In this document: in pieces, positions 26,254 to 29,964 of the stretch
Position numbering within the stretch: the first letter of the stretch is position 1
Layout: each line of letters starts with the position of its first letter
Origin: Candidatus Sysuiplasma jiujiangense
Lineage (GTDB): Archaea > Thermoplasmatota > Thermoplasmata > Sysuiplasmatales > Sysuiplasmataceae
Direction of reading: 5' to 3'
Length of the DNA stretch: 64,000 nt
Assembly (NCBI GenBank): GCA_019721075.1
Contig: JAHEAD010000009.1
Span: 29,888 to 93,887 of the forward strand
Notes under the pieces: model-generated
The model's input: only the letters and a program-made list of their open reading frames with translations
The model's database searches: none
What the model was told of the DNA's origin: nothing
Program-made: the position numbers and the translations under genes

Positions 26254-26739
26254 ATGTCGCCAAAAAGTCAGCCAGCAGGAAAAGTCGGCGAAATAAGGTG
26301 CTGGGCAATATGCCATTCTACAGAAGATGAGCATAAAGTCGAAATGGCGCTCCGAAATGTGGTTGGATCTGAAGCCGCGATTGAGCATGTTCGTACTGAA
26401 ACGCACTTCGGGCAGCCGATGTCAATTATCTCATGCAGATTAAGCGGCGGAAAGAAATTTTCCGAAATTTTGAGCAGGTTCTCCGCTGAAGATATTGAAA
26501 CACTCCTAGGGCAGCTCGAGGAAAGGCTTGACAGTGACAATACATTTCACATCAGGCTTGATAAACAGCAGACATATGAAGGCGAGCCGAAACTGTCATG
26601 CAGCTTTGATCCAGTGACGCGCAAGAAGAGGGACAGCATAGATCTCGATATACACTTCACCACGTATCCGTCCAGGAGAGAAAATGCAATCAGGTTCATA
26701 GAATCGCTGTTGAGAAAAAATGATTTGGAGCAGGGGTAG
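26254..26739 (+). CDS. Hypothetical RNA-binding-like protein (COG1325-like, predicted exosome-associated)
   Basis: 161-aa ORF 6 nt after the previous gene. Its stop codon lies inside the first 10 nt of tRNA-Leu. Confidence 0.45.
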   Translation: MSPKSQPAGKVGEIRCWAICHSTEDEHKVEMALRNVVGSEAAIEHVRTETHFGQPMSIISCRLSGGKKFSEILSRFSAEDIETLLGQLEERLDSDNTFHIRLDKQQTYEGEPKLSCSFDPVTRKKRDSIDLDIHFTTYPSRRENAIRFIESLLRKNDLEQG

Positions 26740-26814
26740 CCCAGCTTGGCCAAAGGCGCAAGGCTTAGGACCTTGTCCAGCAGTGGTTCGCCGGTTCAAA
26801 TCCGGCCCCCTGCA
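26730..26814 (+). tRNA. tRNA-Leu(UAG), class II with long variable arm; CCA not encoded
   Basis: Hand fold: acceptor GCAGGGG/CCCCTGC, discriminator A, anticodon stem CAAGG/CCTTG, loop CTTAGGA, 14-nt variable arm, T-arm GCCGG-TTCAAAT-CCGGC. Confidence 0.85.
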
Positions 26815-27748
26815 CTGGGACGATTGTTCGACCTGTTTAGAAGCGGTTAATCCCTCACTGATATTTGGATCATCATTGGCTTTTTTGAACTGATGAACGA
26901 ACTGGAGTTGCATCAGGATACCGGTTCTACGTAATCATGATGCAAGGAAGAGTGTGACGGAGAGATTAAAGGCTCTTCAGGACAGTCGAATGACGACAGT
27001 CGAACTCAAGATGCCCGTCATTGACGGAATACGCACAAAGGATGTGAACAAAGTGGCACCGCTTAAGGGTTCATGGCGACATCATCGATCGCAAAACCGC
27101 TCTTCCTCGAAGGACTGGTGAAGCTGCCCGGTGCAAAGCTGACATTCGGCGGCGCGGTCAGCAAGGCAGGGCTGCGGAGGTTCGTGATCTCGATATGGTC
27201 GACCGTTGAATTGAAGAACTGCCCCGAGGATACGTTGCATTATCGTAGCGTTCGCAGGCTTGTAGAAGAAGCAGTTGATGGCACATTCACCAGCTACTCC
27301 AGCGTAACGCACGGCAGCAGGGATTAGTTTCAGATAGCACTGAGATACGGCCAAAAAACGAGTCCAGTGCTCGTGCCTGTGTATCAGTCGTATGCTCTCG
27401 AAATCATTGAACTTGATGTCACAACCTGAAAGCAGAGCCTGTGCTATCTGTCCCTGTTGATCAATACTCCTGATCTTCTCCGGACAGCTTACCGATGGTT
27501 CCGATTGCCCTGGAGGTATCCGGGTCCATCGTTGACAGGCACTCTTAGATGAAAACCGCGAGCATCATCAGCAGTTCTTTGAATGCGCGCAAATAGCGTT
27601 TAGTGAGATTTCAACTATCACAACAGAACAACGCATTTTATCTTCCTTCCTCACCATTACCTGCGCGATCGGTTTTGCGACGGATTCACGGGCGCATCAC
27701 GAAGAGATGTGCCTGGTTTCGGCTCAAGCGCAACTGAAAGCAGTTAAA

Positions 27749-27774
27749 TATAGGTATGTAAATACTTACTACTA
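27749..27774. promoter_or_regulatory. Perfect 26-bp palindrome AATACTTACTACTAGTAGTAAGTATT ~50 bp upstream of the RHH-fusion gene; candidate RHH operator or centromere-like site
   Basis: Verified base by base as its own reverse complement. Confidence 0.6.
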
Positions 27775-27824
27775 GTAGTAAGTATTAAGTAATTAGCTAT
27801 CACTGATCATTACCGGCGATTTCC

Positions 27825-28346
27825 GTGAATGAAAAGGTAAGCATATCCCTTGATGAAAATATAATCAAACTCATAGATGCCGAAAGGGGAGATGTACCCA
27901 GAAGCAGGTACATAGAGAACCTGCTCAAGACTGCCGGCTCGCTTTTTGAGGCTCTGTGGATATTTTCAGACGAATTTGAAAGTGTTACAAAAATGGAGAG
28001 ATGGCTCGCAGCTCACGCTTCGCAGCCACTGGGGAGACCGCTGCACAAGCATGAAGGGTACCTCTCCGTTACGGATAATGCACTGCGCTTTTATAACGAT
28101 AAAATGGATCTTCTGTTTATTATCGAAAAGCGTTCAATCCTGAATATGAGCGTGAGTTACGATGAGCAGTTCAAAAGATTCAGAGACTCGCGCGGACTCA
28201 TACCGCCGCTCAAGCTGGAGCTCGATAACAGGATTGTGTATCTCTTCACCAAGACCATAGGCAGGAAACGGCTGGGAGGGGGGTGGATGTTCAGAGGAGA
28301 GAATGAAGCTCTGGAAATGTGGTTTAAGGGCTTTCCGCAGCGCTGA
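27825..28346 (+). CDS. Ribbon-helix-helix (CopG/Arc-like) DNA-binding domain fused to a ~130-aa uncharacterised C-terminal domain
   Basis: N-terminal beta-strand then two helices: VSISLDENIIKLIDAE...RSRYIENLLK. The C-terminal part has no recognised motif. Confidence 0.55.
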   Translation: MNEKVSISLDENIIKLIDAERGDVPRSRYIENLLKTAGSLFEALWIFSDEFESVTKMERWLAAHASQPLGRPLHKHEGYLSVTDNALRFYNDKMDLLFIIEKRSILNMSVSYDEQFKRFRDSRGLIPPLKLELDNRIVYLFTKTIGRKRLGGGWMFRGENEALEMWFKGFPQR

Positions 28347-28685
28347 ACTGTTCGGTTCTGCCGCGGCGGAGTTATTACGCTGCAATGAAGAGTACATACT
28401 GATCGGCAAAGGAACAAGACCGGCCCATAAGTCGTCAGCTCGTCAGCGCCACCGCAACATTTGTGCTGCCTGGCAACGGCGCAGTGAGAGGCTCACACAC
28501 TGTCTATTGGAAAAACGGCAAATTCATCCATGCGTCAGAATGCCACCTGCACCTGTCAGGGCAACAGCAGACAGGTTGTCGATTTCACAGACAGCATATT
28601 CAGGTGCTGAATGAGATCAAACCGGTTTGCTCCCTGCCTGCTTAGCGGGGATAGGGTTTCGCCCTACCCGGATTCAATACCTGAT

Positions 28686-29450
28686 TTACTGGAAATTGAA
28701 ATATGGACCGCCGATTGTGAAGAGCGAGGCCTGCATGAATCCGGATTCCTGCTGGGGGGGCGTCAGCGTGACGTCTGCTTCCTGCTGCACATTTCCCATT
28801 GAAAGGATATCGTAACGGAGTTCCTCCGCTATGTCCGAACTGAAGTACTGCGTAATCTGGTCGTTTATGTGCCTGCAGACGGAGAGTATTATCTTGGATA
28901 TTCCCTCCTGGACTATTCTGAAACCGTCCTCCAGCGTGATTTCATCCGAAAGCTCGGTGAGTTTATTGTTGTCTATGACAACAATCGCATCCGAGATGGA
29001 TTTCAGTTCAGCAATTGTCTTCTCGCACTGCGACCTGGACTCCTCGACAAACGGTCTTATACCAATCGAGACAACAGTGATATCCATTTCCTTTGCCGCC
29101 CTTGCCACGACAGGCGCAACACGTGAGCCGAAGGTTCCACCGAGGCCGGTTACAACAAATATGATACCTGCGTTGACTATCTTTGCCTTTATTGCCTCAA
29201 GGTACAGCTCTTCGACAGCGTCAATATCCTCCGGCCTGATCAGGAGCGCAGAACTGCAGGCGACAGAGCAGAGTCTGTCCTGATTGTCATTGACTGCGAC
29301 TGTCTCAATATCGGGGTGTTCCCAGTACAGCCGTTCAGCAATGTTCGTTCCGGCGCCGCCGCAGCCGACGACGCTCACTCTAGGTTCTCCGATTCCGCCC
29401 ACAATGGATACATCCATCCCTTCCTGGGTGAAGTCACCGAATTCAGACAT
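28686..29450 (-). CDS. FtsZ/tubulin-superfamily GTPase, minimal form (GTPase core through the T7 region, no C-terminal domain); FtsZl1- or TubZ-like
   Basis: T1 loop VVGCGGAGTNIAERL (cf. FtsZ VIGVGGGGNNAVNRM), degenerate tubulin signature VTGLGGTFGSRVAPVVARAAKE (cf. GMGGGTGTGAAPVIA), VVSIGIRPFVEESRSQCEKTIAELKSISDAIVVIDNNKL (cf. VVTKPFSFEGRKR...LIVIPNDKL), and a T7-like INDQ. It ends ~60 aa later at 254 aa. Confidence 0.8.
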   Translation of the reverse strand: MSEFGDFTQEGMDVSIVGGIGEPRVSVVGCGGAGTNIAERLYWEHPDIETVAVNDNQDRLCSVACSSALLIRPEDIDAVEELYLEAIKAKIVNAGIIFVVTGLGGTFGSRVAPVVARAAKEMDITVVSIGIRPFVEESRSQCEKTIAELKSISDAIVVIDNNKLTELSDEITLEDGFRIVQEGISKIILSVCRHINDQITQYFSSDIAEELRYDILSMGNVQQEADVTLTPPQQESGFMQASLFTIGGPYFNFQ

Positions 29451-29562: not shown

Positions 29563-29964
29563 CTAGTGCTCGCGGTCCACTTGCACCAGTCTTTCCCTGG
29601 AGTCGCATATGGAATCAATGGTTTTGTCGAGCCTGCTGTCCTTATTTATGGTGTGGTTCTTCAGAATGAAGTATGCAGCCTCATTCTCATCCACGAAGTA
29701 CCCTCCTCTCACCATCTCTTGGAGGACATGCATGACTGCAGGCGCGGCAACAATCTTGATCACTCTTCTGTTCTCAGGCGCCTCGTTCGCAGTGCCTGCG
29801 ACGCTACCATCTTCTTCGAAGATAAAGCGCCTGATCGCCTCTCGAGCTAAATGAGATCTGCTCGCAAATTCCGTGTGCGATTCAAGGAATTTGTCGATTG
29901 TCTTTATCTCATTGTCGTCGAGACGAAGAGAAATCCTGTTGTCCACCATTGTGCCCTTCTCCAT
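29563..29964 (-). CDS. Ribbon-helix-helix (CopG-like) DNA-binding protein with a ~70-aa C-terminal extension, immediately upstream of the FtsZ-like gene
   Basis: RISLRLDDNEIKTIDKFLE...SRSHLAREAIRRFI RHH pattern; 112-nt gap to the FtsZ-like gene on the same strand. Confidence 0.6.
   Translation of the reverse strand: MEKGTMVDNRISLRLDDNEIKTIDKFLESHTEFASRSHLAREAIRRFIFEEDGSVAGTANEAPENRRVIKIVAAPAVMHVLQEMVRGGYFVDENEAAYFILKNHTINKDSRLDKTIDSICDSRERLVQVDREH

What the first reader, a model, noticed from the sequence alone, without database searches (positions are those of the whole stretch)
27825..28346. RHH domain fused to an unrecognised ~130-aa C-terminal domain
The N-terminal 45 aa form a clear ribbon-helix-helix. 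The remainder (…WLAAHASQPLGRPLHKHEGYLSVTDNALRFYNDKMDLLFIIEKRSILNMSVSYDEQFKRF…GGGWMFRGENEALEMWFKGF) matches no family I recognise. RHH proteins are usually <100 aa, so a larger fusion suggests an effector or sensor domain. It could equally be a fused antitoxin-like regulator of the neighbouring FtsZ-like cassette.
Basis: partly seen in the sequence, partly recalled or inferred. Interest (0 to 1): 0.5.

Follow-up and report, generated by a model that had tools for sequence, protein, structure and literature searches.

The report
Archaeal RHH regulator with PH-like domain
This is a real, conserved archaeal gene for a small DNA-binding (ribbon-helix-helix) protein fused to an unannotated pleckstrin-homology-like domain; it most likely regulates its own promoter, and it sits next to the FtsZ-like genes only by accident of insertion.

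Summary
The 173-aa ORF at 27825-28346 (+) is real: it has 34 homologues and dN/dS of about 0.09 against an 85%-identical orthologue.

- **N-terminal domain.** Residues 1-37 are a ribbon-helix-helix (RHH). Single-sequence scores are below threshold, but the family hits RHH models consistently.
- **Domain family.** The family has at least 170 clusters, all "hypothetical". It is mostly standalone (about 135 aa) in archaea, bacteria and volvocine algae. It has been fused independently to several RHH lineages and to AbrB/MazE-type DNA-binding domains.
- **Candidate operator.** A palindrome (core CTACTAGTAG; a perfect 26-bp dyad at 27761-27786) lies next to a TATA-like box about 40-60 nt upstream. 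It travels with the gene through unrelated genomic contexts.
- **FtsZ link.** This is not supported. Syntenic relatives keep the RHH-127/tubulin-254 cassette and tRNA-Leu but lack this gene.

Best reading: a self-contained, autoregulated transcription factor whose PH-like domain is a sensor, partner-binding or oligomerisation module. The ligand is unknown.

The parts
27825..28346 (+). CDS, 173 aa (GTG start, TGA stop): RHH + PH-like fusion protein
   Evidence: ORF list and sequence; 34 homologues; dN/dS ~0.09 against L034
27825..27935 (+). Ribbon-helix-helix DNA-binding domain (residues 1-37). Beta-strand KVSISL; helix A DENIIKLIDAER; G-D-V-P-R-S turn; helix B RSRYIENLLKTA.
   Evidence: AF2 helices 11-21 and 26-36; 14/17 family N-termini hit Pfam RHH_1, 7 hit RHH_3; PDB profile best hit is RHH antitoxin Rv0298, E 0.006; NCBIfam MazE-type antitoxin model NF050104, residues 4-36, E 2.7e-4
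27936..28343 (+). PH-like (PH/PTB/GRAM superfold) domain of an unannotated family (residues 38-173). Motifs: ALWIFxDE, AHxSQPxGxPLHKHEGY, GYDxxFxRFRDSRGxxPP, YLFT, RGEN.
27761..27786 (.). Perfect 26-bp palindrome AATACTTACTACT|AGTAGTAAGTATT. Candidate operator for the RHH dimer(s). The conserved core CTACTAGTAG is at 27769-27778.
   Evidence: The core is conserved at the same register upstream of orthologues in unrelated contexts. The exact 10-mer occurs once in each of 12 of 115 loci, always just upstream of the gene, and nowhere else. It is unique in the 64-kb window.
27780..27788 (+). AAGTATTAA: TATA/BRE-like promoter element overlapping the right arm of the palindrome, 37-45 nt upstream of the start codon
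   Evidence: rTATTwA lies at -36 to -44 in 9 of 16 loci, 15 nt (13 in the window) downstream of CTACT. The only other exact copy in the window lies 40-48 nt upstream of the RHH-133/FtsZ-like operon start. The promoter role is inferred.
26730..26815 (+). tRNA-Leu (context only). The variable insertion spot that holds the RHH-PH gene lies 3' of this tRNA.
   Evidence: In L113/L115 the tRNA-Leu lies ~300 nt from the tubulin-like gene with no RHH-PH gene between them.

Best explanation
The gene encodes a self-contained, probably autoregulated archaeal transcription factor.

- **DNA binding (inferred).** The N-terminal RHH (residues 1-37) dimerises and inserts its two-stranded beta-ribbon into the major groove of the CTACTAGTAG dyad. 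That dyad abuts and overlaps the BRE/TATA-like element of the gene's own promoter. Occupancy would therefore hinder TBP/TFB recruitment and repress transcription.
- **C-terminal domain.** With no linker, each RHH subunit carries a ~135-aa PH-like domain of an unannotated family. This domain is the regulatory module: it binds a signal (small molecule or peptide/protein partner) and/or drives higher-order oligomerisation, and so tunes DNA binding.
- **Genomic status.** Promoter, operator and gene move together as one unit. In this genome the unit was inserted 3' of tRNA-Leu, next to an RHH/FtsZ-like cassette to which it is functionally unrelated.

Shown: the ORF is real and under purifying selection; the RHH assignment; the PH-like fold; the conserved upstream dyad; the lack of any conserved neighbour; the recurrent fusion of the domain to DNA-binding modules.

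Inferred: DNA binding at the dyad, repression, and a signal-dependent role for the PH-like domain. The ligand is unknown.
For: - The gene is real and constrained.
- RHH assignment.
- PH-like fold at high confidence. Sub-threshold sequence hits all fall in the PH clan: bPH_3 6.3e-5, GRAM 0.0075, PH 0.01, Vps36 0.017.
- The C-domain occurs standalone in 158 of 212 collected proteins. It is fused to at least 3-4 different RHH types and 2 AbrB/SpoVT types (PF04014, E 4.7e-9; TIGR01439 above cutoff). That is the pattern expected of a portable regulatory module.
- Upstream dyad. It is a perfect 26-bp palindrome in the window. The core plus TATA-like box sit at a fixed register in 9-10 of 16 non-redundant loci, although synonymous sites are saturated between the window and three of them (L005, L012, L013). 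Window-versus-L034 DNA similarity resumes at 27756, five bases upstream of the palindrome. The exact core 10-mer is found only upstream of this gene in 115 loci.
- Loci with beta-strand ISISL keep the element (10/10), whereas ISITL and other variants mostly lack it (1/6). Fisher p = 0.0014, but this is confounded by phylogeny.
- Neighbours are not conserved.
Against: - There is no experimental DNA-binding or expression data.
- RHH scores are below Pfam's gathering threshold for the single sequence.
- The RHH part of the monomer model has low pLDDT (43-67). This is expected for an obligate dimer but is not proof.
- The conserved upstream block could be mainly a strong promoter (BRE/TATA) retained by descent rather than an operator. 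Its right half is degenerate in L009, L012, L014 and L018.
- More distant orthologues (L001, L015, L017, L020, L026) lack the motif.
- Only H74, D113 and N160 are near-invariant polar residues across the whole family.
- Most family members lack any DNA-binding domain, so the domain's primary function need not be transcriptional.
Confidence: 0.6

Rival explanations
1. Dedicated regulator of the neighbouring RHH-133/short-FtsZ-like cassette. The protein would bind that cassette's promoter and couple a signal to cell division or membrane remodelling.
For: Physical proximity: the genes converge about 340 nt apart. The adjacency is retained in the 85% relative L034. FtsZ genes are also near orthologues in L001/L002 and L026. 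RHH proteins (CdrS) are known regulators of ftsZ2 (PMC7439475).
Against: - L113, L114 and L115 keep the RHH-127/tubulin-254 cassette and the surrounding synteny, but have no RHH-PH gene.
- In L034 an FMN_bind_2 gene separates the two.
- Most orthologue contexts have no FtsZ.
- The FtsZ in L001 and L026 is the canonical full-length FtsZ of the ftsZ-secE-nusG-rpl11 cluster, not the short one.
- The dyad motif is absent from the cassette promoter.
- The cassette has its own co-oriented RHH gene.
Confidence: 0.04
2. Toxin-antitoxin-like element. The RHH (or AbrB in relatives) would be an antitoxin-type DNA-binding head, and the C-terminal domain a fused toxin, toxin mimic or toxin-neutralising domain.
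For: RHH and AbrB/MazE are the classic antitoxin DNA-binding modules. The best PDB and NCBIfam hits for the N-terminus are antitoxins: Rv0298 (E 0.006) and MazE-type NF050104 (E 2.7e-4). The AbrB-fused relatives hit 'doc_partner' and antitoxin models. The gene is patchily distributed, sits in variable regions and is apparently transferred horizontally.
Against: - No conserved adjacent partner gene in any context.
- No PADLOC or PHROG hit for the target or the standalone proteins; the AbrB-fused relative's only PHROG hits are to its N-terminal AbrB domain.
- Standalone C-domains sit beside housekeeping genes without an RHH/AbrB neighbour and occur in green algae.
- The domain has a PH-like fold, which to my own knowledge is not a known toxin fold.
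- None were found in viral contigs.
Confidence: 0.08
3. Metal- or small-molecule-responsive repressor of the NikR type. Conserved His/Asp residues of the C-domain (H64, H74, H76, D113 in the Thermoplasmata clade) would form a metal site whose occupancy switches DNA binding. This would fit acid-mine-drainage habitats. It is a specific sub-case of the best explanation.
For: The architecture (RHH + C-terminal sensor) parallels NikR, and a weak NikR profile hit exists (E 0.55). The loop AHxSQPxGxPLHKHEG is His-rich and highly conserved in the clade. Source MAGs are from acidic, metal-rich sites (record titles).
Against: - H64 and H76 are not conserved across the wider family; H76 becomes Y, and only H74 and D113 are near-invariant.
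- The C-domain fold is PH-like, not ACT-like.
- No neighbouring metal transporter is conserved.
- Spatial clustering of the residues could not be checked.
Confidence: 0.1
4. Not primarily a transcription factor. The PH-like domain would perform a membrane- or protein-associated function, as GRAM/bPH domains do, and the RHH would merely provide dimerisation or non-specific nucleic-acid tethering.
For: Three quarters of family members have no DNA-binding domain. One relative has C-terminal TM helices (P0040). Some standalone genes sit next to RDD/CPBP membrane proteins. Bacterial PH domains form oligomeric rings, and their functions are not transcriptional (PMC2817789).
Against: - Repeated independent fusion specifically to sequence-specific DNA-binding folds (RHH, AbrB).
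- A gene-linked conserved dyad at the promoter.
- The target has no TM segment or signal peptide on inspection of the sequence.
Confidence: 0.12

Closest known systems
NikR (RHH + C-terminal sensor domain; PDB 1q5v, 2hza)
   Same: An N-terminal RHH is fused directly to a globular C-terminal regulatory domain, and the protein is expected to autoregulate at a palindromic operator. A weak profile hit to the NikR RHH exists (E 0.55).
   Different: The C-domain here is a PH-like beta-sandwich, not an ACT-like ferredoxin fold. There is no NikR NCBIfam hit for the target, no conserved metal-transport neighbours, and no experimental ligand.
Type II antitoxins with RHH or AbrB/SpoVT heads (e.g. Rv0298, PDB 8u12; MazE, PF04014)
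   Same: The best sequence matches of the N-terminus are to these proteins. Relatives of the C-domain are fused to PF04014. The protein is small, patchily distributed and probably autoregulated.
   Different: There is no cognate toxin gene. The C-terminus is a folded 135-aa domain instead of a short disordered toxin-binding tail.
Prokaryotic PH-like domains: bPH_3/YokE-like (PF14470), GRAM (PF02893), PHb PF08000 (Xu et al. 2010, PMC2817789), and the PH-like domain in archaeal CheF (PDB 7ovp)
   Different: No member reaches any family's gathering score. The family has its own signature motifs (ALWxFxxE, AHTSxxKPLHxxEG, GFDDxFRR, PLRIxF). It has an extra N-terminal strand plus two short helices, an elaboration I judge from my own knowledge to be PTB-like. 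Its fusion to RHH/AbrB was not found in the literature search.
CdrS / cdrS-ftsZ2 (PMC7439475)
   Same: A small archaeal RHH protein near an FtsZ-family gene.
   Different: CdrS is ~60 aa and lies co-oriented immediately upstream of ftsZ2. Here that role fits the neighbouring RHH-133 gene (29563-29964, weak CdrS hit). It does not fit the target, which is convergent, carries a PH-like domain and is absent from syntenic relatives.

Membership tests
Ribbon-helix-helix (Arc/MetJ/CopG) superfamily | Sequence match to an RHH family model at the curated threshold | tested here: not met
   Target: RHH_1 14.9 bits against a cutoff of 20.5; no RHH hit for the full-length protein. Family-level support exists: 14/17 N-termini hit RHH_1 (best E 2e-4) and 7 hit RHH_3.
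Ribbon-helix-helix (Arc/MetJ/CopG) superfamily | Beta-strand, helix A, G-x-(S/T/N) turn, helix B within ~40 residues | tested here: met
   KVSISL / DENIIKLIDAER / G22-D-V-P-R-S27 / RSRYIENLLKTA. AF2 helices 11-21 and 26-36. Invariant R21, G22, D23, P25, R26, S27. Aligns to the RHH antitoxin Rv0298 over positions 2-36.
Ribbon-helix-helix (Arc/MetJ/CopG) superfamily | Obligate dimer that binds DNA through the paired beta-ribbon | not testable with these tools
   Only monomer prediction was available. The conserved dyad upstream is consistent with this feature but indirect.
PH-like superfold (Pfam clan PH; PH/PTB/GRAM/bPH) | Antiparallel beta-sandwich closed at one end by a C-terminal alpha-helix | tested here: met
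PH-like superfold (Pfam clan PH; PH/PTB/GRAM/bPH) | Membership of a specific Pfam family (PH, GRAM, bPH_1-6) at the gathering score | tested here: not met
   No hit for the target. Homologues give only sub-threshold hits: bPH_3 6.3e-5 (2/43), GRAM 0.0075 (3/43), PH 0.01.
Type II toxin-antitoxin antitoxin | Cognate toxin gene adjacent in the same operon | tested here: not met
   No conserved neighbour across about 20 contexts. In the window the downstream gene is convergent.
Type II toxin-antitoxin antitoxin | Short, largely disordered C-terminal toxin-binding region | tested here: not met
   The C-terminus is a confidently folded 135-aa domain.
NikR family | C-terminal ACT-like tetramerisation and metal-binding domain with conserved His/Cys ligands | tested here: not met
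   The fold is PH-like. No NikR model hit for the target in NCBIfam.
CdrS (cdrS-ftsZ2 module) | Small RHH gene immediately upstream of, and co-transcribed with, an FtsZ-family gene; co-occurrence across genomes | tested here: not met
   The target converges on the FtsZ-like gene and is absent in syntenic L113-L115. There is no CdrS model hit for the target.

The most novel reading that the evidence does not exclude
The C-terminal domain defines a previously undescribed, widely distributed PH-like domain family found in archaea, bacteria and volvocine algae. Archaea have repeatedly recruited it as the signal-sensing or partner-binding module of one-component transcription factors, with RHH or AbrB heads. 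As far as the searches here could tell, this would be the first PH-like sensor domain in prokaryotic transcription factors, and it would bind a ligand that is still unknown.
Probability: 0.35. Interest if true: 0.55.

Novelty: new variant of a known kind. Interest (0 to 1): 0.4.

Why it matters
RHH regulators with C-terminal sensor domains are a known design (NikR). A PH-like sensor or partner-binding domain attached to RHH or AbrB heads was not found in any domain library or paper searched here.

- If the domain really gates DNA binding, it adds a new module to the small repertoire of archaeal one-component regulators.
- It would also give a functional handle on a family of at least 170 "hypothetical" protein clusters that spans all three domains of life.
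- The compact promoter-operator-gene unit, with a 26-bp perfect palindrome, is an easy in vitro test system.
- The analysis also removes a tempting but wrong link to archaeal cell division.

Tried and rejected
1. Pfam, NCBIfam, PHROGs, PADLOC and PDB sequence searches with the single protein and with profiles gave no family for the C-domain.
2. The exhaustive HMM search also returned long WD40-repeat proteins. They match only profile positions about 53-82, repeatedly ('WDAxTGQPLGKPLxGHxxxV' against 'AHTSQPLGKPLHKHEG'). I rejected these as local, non-homologous similarity.
3. Co-occurrence with FtsZ, tested from the target side and from the FtsZ-like side, was rejected.
4. A conserved-partner search for the standalone domain in 73 metagenome loci found only clade-restricted neighbours: RDD/CPBP membrane proteins, HU, a methyltransferase and a flavodoxin. 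There is no universal partner.
5. Viral origin: no relatives were found in IMG/VR.
6. Integrated element with att repeats: there is no direct repeat of the tRNA-Leu 3' end in 26700-28750.
7. A regulon search for the dyad found no other copy in the 64-kb window or elsewhere in the 115 loci.
8. The AFDB Foldseek library was not available. Model coordinates are not exposed, so conserved residues could not be mapped in 3D.
9. The 940-nt spacer between tRNA-Leu and the promoter, and the 340-nt downstream spacer, gave no Pfam or Rfam hits.

Full report
**Observation**

The window contains an ORF at 27825..28346 (+) with a GTG start. It is a genuine gene.
- 34 proteins of 133-187 aa match it at E from 1e-110 to 1e-13. 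The few that carry a source name are Thermoplasmata/Thermoplasmatota MAG proteins, and every named one is annotated "hypothetical".
- Orthologues start with ATG at the same codon.
- Against the 85%-identical orthologue in L034, dN = 0.086 and dS = 0.93.
- A genome scan adds orthologues in E-plasma and other Thermoplasmatales. It also finds them in DPANN MAGs from the same kinds of sites (Micrarchaeota, Nanoarchaeota, Woesearchaeota), in Sysuiplasma, and, with a different RHH head, in Bathyarchaeota, Thermoproteota and Thaumarchaeota MAGs.

**N-terminal domain**

Residues 1-37 have the canonical RHH layout:
- beta-strand KVSISL;
- helix A DENIIKLIDAER;
- turn G22-D-V-P-R-S27;
- helix B RSRYIENLLKTA.

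AF2 predicts helices 11-21 and 26-36. Single-sequence scores are below the curated cutoffs. However, 14 of 17 family N-termini hit Pfam RHH_1 (best E 2e-4) and 7 hit RHH_3. A profile of the N-termini finds the RHH antitoxin Rv0298 (E 0.006), and NikR further down the list at E 0.55.

The boundary is residue ~37, not 45. Residues 40-47 form the first strand of the C-terminal domain and are present in homologues that have no RHH.

**C-terminal domain**

No curated library recognises it.

With a 49-sequence alignment, AF2 gives a confident model (pLDDT 88.5, pTM 0.84). Its elements in order are an N-terminal strand, two short helices, six further strands with a short helix (79-82) between the fourth and fifth, and a C-terminal helix.
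- Foldseek agrees qualitatively, with PTB and PH domains on top, but only weakly (E >= 7.6e-3, TM ~0.4).
- At sequence level, a few homologues give sub-threshold hits. Most of these, including the strongest (bPH_3), fall in the PH clan: bPH_3 6.3e-5, GRAM 0.0075, PH 0.01, Vps36-GLUE 0.017.

The domain is therefore a divergent, unannotated member of the PH-like superfold.

**The wider family**

An exhaustive profile search and a second word-indexed search find at least 170 clusters.
- Of 212 collected proteins that contain the domain, 158 are standalone at about 130-145 aa.
- Named standalone examples come from Caldiarchaeum and Bathyarchaeota. Others sit in an archaeal contig next to rpS19e/rpL31e and in a probably bacterial contig next to purD and CorA. 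Two volvocine algae also have it: Tetrabaena PNH04681.1 and Gonium.
- The remainder are N-terminal fusions to this RHH, to at least three other RHH types (P0051; P0092/P0192; P0045), and to two AbrB/SpoVT types (P0044 group with PF04014 at E 4.7e-9; P0234).
- One member has C-terminal TM helices (P0040).
- Invariant or near-invariant residues across the whole family are P72, H74, G78, D113, P128, Y139 and N160 in target numbering.
- The long WD40 proteins in the hit list match only a ~20-residue motif, repeatedly, and are not homologues.

**Cis element**

A perfect 26-bp palindrome, AATACTTACTACT|AGTAGTAAGTATT, lies at 27761-27786, 39 nt upstream of the start codon.
- Orthologous loci in unrelated genomic contexts carry tCCTACTAGTAG-nAAAAGTATTAAt at the same register. 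CTACT lies at -51 to -59, and rTATTwA lies 15 nt downstream of it (13 nt in the window). This holds in 9-10 of 16 non-redundant loci.
- Synonymous sites are saturated between the window and three of these loci (L005, L012, L013), so this conservation is not neutral.
- DNA similarity between the window and L034 resumes at 27756, five bases upstream of the palindrome.
- The exact core CTACTAGTAG occurs once in each of 12 of the 115 loci fetched, always just upstream of this gene and nowhere else. It is unique in the 64-kb window.
- The AAGTATTAA part also occurs 40-48 nt upstream of the start of the neighbouring RHH-133/FtsZ-like operon. It is therefore probably a generic BRE/TATA element, and the CTACT/AGTAG dyad is the specific part.
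- Loci whose RHH strand reads ISISL keep the element (10/10). ISITL and other variants mostly lack it (1/6; Fisher p = 0.0014). This is suggestive but confounded by phylogeny.

**Context**

No neighbour is conserved. FtsZ-family genes are near the target in only two situations:
- in the window and L034, where the neighbour is the short 254-aa tubulin-like gene, and L034 has an FMN_bind_2 gene in between;
- in L001/L002 and L026, where the gene sits in or near the ftsZ-secE gene cluster. In L026 that cluster continues with ribosomal protein genes on both sides of the target.

Approached from the other side, homologues of the 254-aa tubulin-like protein in L113, L114 and L115 show the same synteny as the window: ECF-S | RHH-127 | tubulin-254 | tRNA-Leu | RNA_binding | NAD kinase | DUF6015 (L113 and L115 continue to phosphoglycerate mutase). 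They have no RHH-PH gene. L114 has other genes at that spot.

The RHH-PH gene, with its own promoter and operator, is therefore an insertion in a variable spot 3' of tRNA-Leu (26730-26815). No att-like repeat was found, and there are no viral relatives.

**Mechanism**

The best-supported reading is an autoregulated RHH transcription factor. Its dimer, or dimer of dimers, binds the dyad abutting its own TATA/BRE and thereby represses transcription. The PH-like domain, attached without a linker, modulates this by binding a signal or partner and/or by oligomerising.

The evidence for a regulatory-module role is comparative: repeated independent fusion to RHH and AbrB heads. No ligand can be named. 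A NikR-like metal switch is possible, because the Thermoplasmata clade has a His-rich conserved loop. However, only H74 and D113 are conserved family-wide.

The toxin-antitoxin and FtsZ-regulator readings fail their defining tests.

**Comparison and novelty**

Functionally this resembles NikR-type "RHH + sensor" regulators. Structurally, the sensor belongs to the PH-like superfold, nearest to bPH_3/GRAM by weak sequence signal and to PTB/PH by structure. Full-text searches found no paper that describes an RHH-PH fusion: one search returned none, and the other returned two papers on other subjects. Known prokaryotic PH domains (PMC2817789) are not transcription-factor modules.

I rate this a new variant of a known kind, of moderate interest. 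It is an unannotated, cross-domain protein family with a clean, testable promoter-operator-gene unit, but so far without a function or ligand.

Noticed in passing
window 28686-29450 (-) and 29563-29964 (-): A conserved two-gene cassette: a 133-aa RHH protein (weak CdrS and RHH_1 hits) immediately upstream of a short 254-aa tubulin/FtsZ-like protein. The latter has only the GTPase domain (PF00091) and no FtsZ_C. The pair recurs in L034 and L113-L115. The tubulin-like family is small (16 clusters; the only one named by a source is a Thermoplasmata archaeon). The arrangement resembles cdrS-ftsZ2, but with a truncated FtsZ.
   Followed up: partly
window 26816-27755: About 940 nt lie between tRNA-Leu and the RHH-PH promoter with coding-like GC (~0.50). 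The ORFs of this stretch that were scanned gave no significant Pfam hit, and nothing matched Rfam. The stretch is absent from the 85% relative L034, where the gap is ~115 nt. It could be a decayed remnant of an inserted element, or an unannotated RNA.
   Followed up: partly
window 27759-27767 (-): The left arm of the palindrome creates a second TATA-like element (AAGTATTTA) on the minus strand. This would be a possible divergent promoter pointing into the unannotated 940-nt spacer.
   Followed up: no
L015, L017, L018, L019, L020 (DPANN MAGs): Micrarchaeota, Nanoarchaeota and Woesearchaeota MAGs carry ~50%-identical RHH-PH orthologues, some from the same sampling series as the Thermoplasmata MAGs. 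Micrarchaeota L018 even keeps the CCTACT...AAGTATTA upstream element. This suggests horizontal transfer of the whole promoter-gene unit between hosts and DPANN symbionts.
   Followed up: partly
P0130 (Tetrabaena socialis PNH04681.1) and P0257 (Gonium pectorale): The standalone PH-like domain of this otherwise prokaryotic family occurs in two volvocine green algae, on large contigs of 114 and 234 kb.
   Followed up: no
P0042, P0049, P0067 and other long proteins: WD40-repeat proteins share a ~20-residue motif (WDAxTGQPLGKPLxGHxxxV) with the family's AHTSQPLGKPLHKHEG loop. Because the motif repeats, it inflates HMM scores to E 5e-28. This is local similarity, not homology.
   Followed up: yes
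L016 6001-6099; L021 near 6100: The orthologue in L016 is cut after 33 codons, by a frameshift, a pseudogene or an assembly error. L021 has a masked run inside the gene.
   Followed up: no
L022-L025 and P0028, P0031-P0034: Close relatives of the Thermoplasmata RHH-PH clade (about 35-53% identity) lack the RHH and carry only a short unrelated N-terminal extension. The DNA-binding head has therefore been gained or lost within the clade. One MAG (YF1.bin6) has two such copies.
   Followed up: partly
L040-L045, L061, L064, L085, L086: In one clade of standalone-domain loci, the gene immediately downstream encodes an RDD-family membrane protein, sometimes fused to a CPBP (CAAX-type) intramembrane protease. 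This may hint at a membrane-linked role for the standalone domain.
   Followed up: partly
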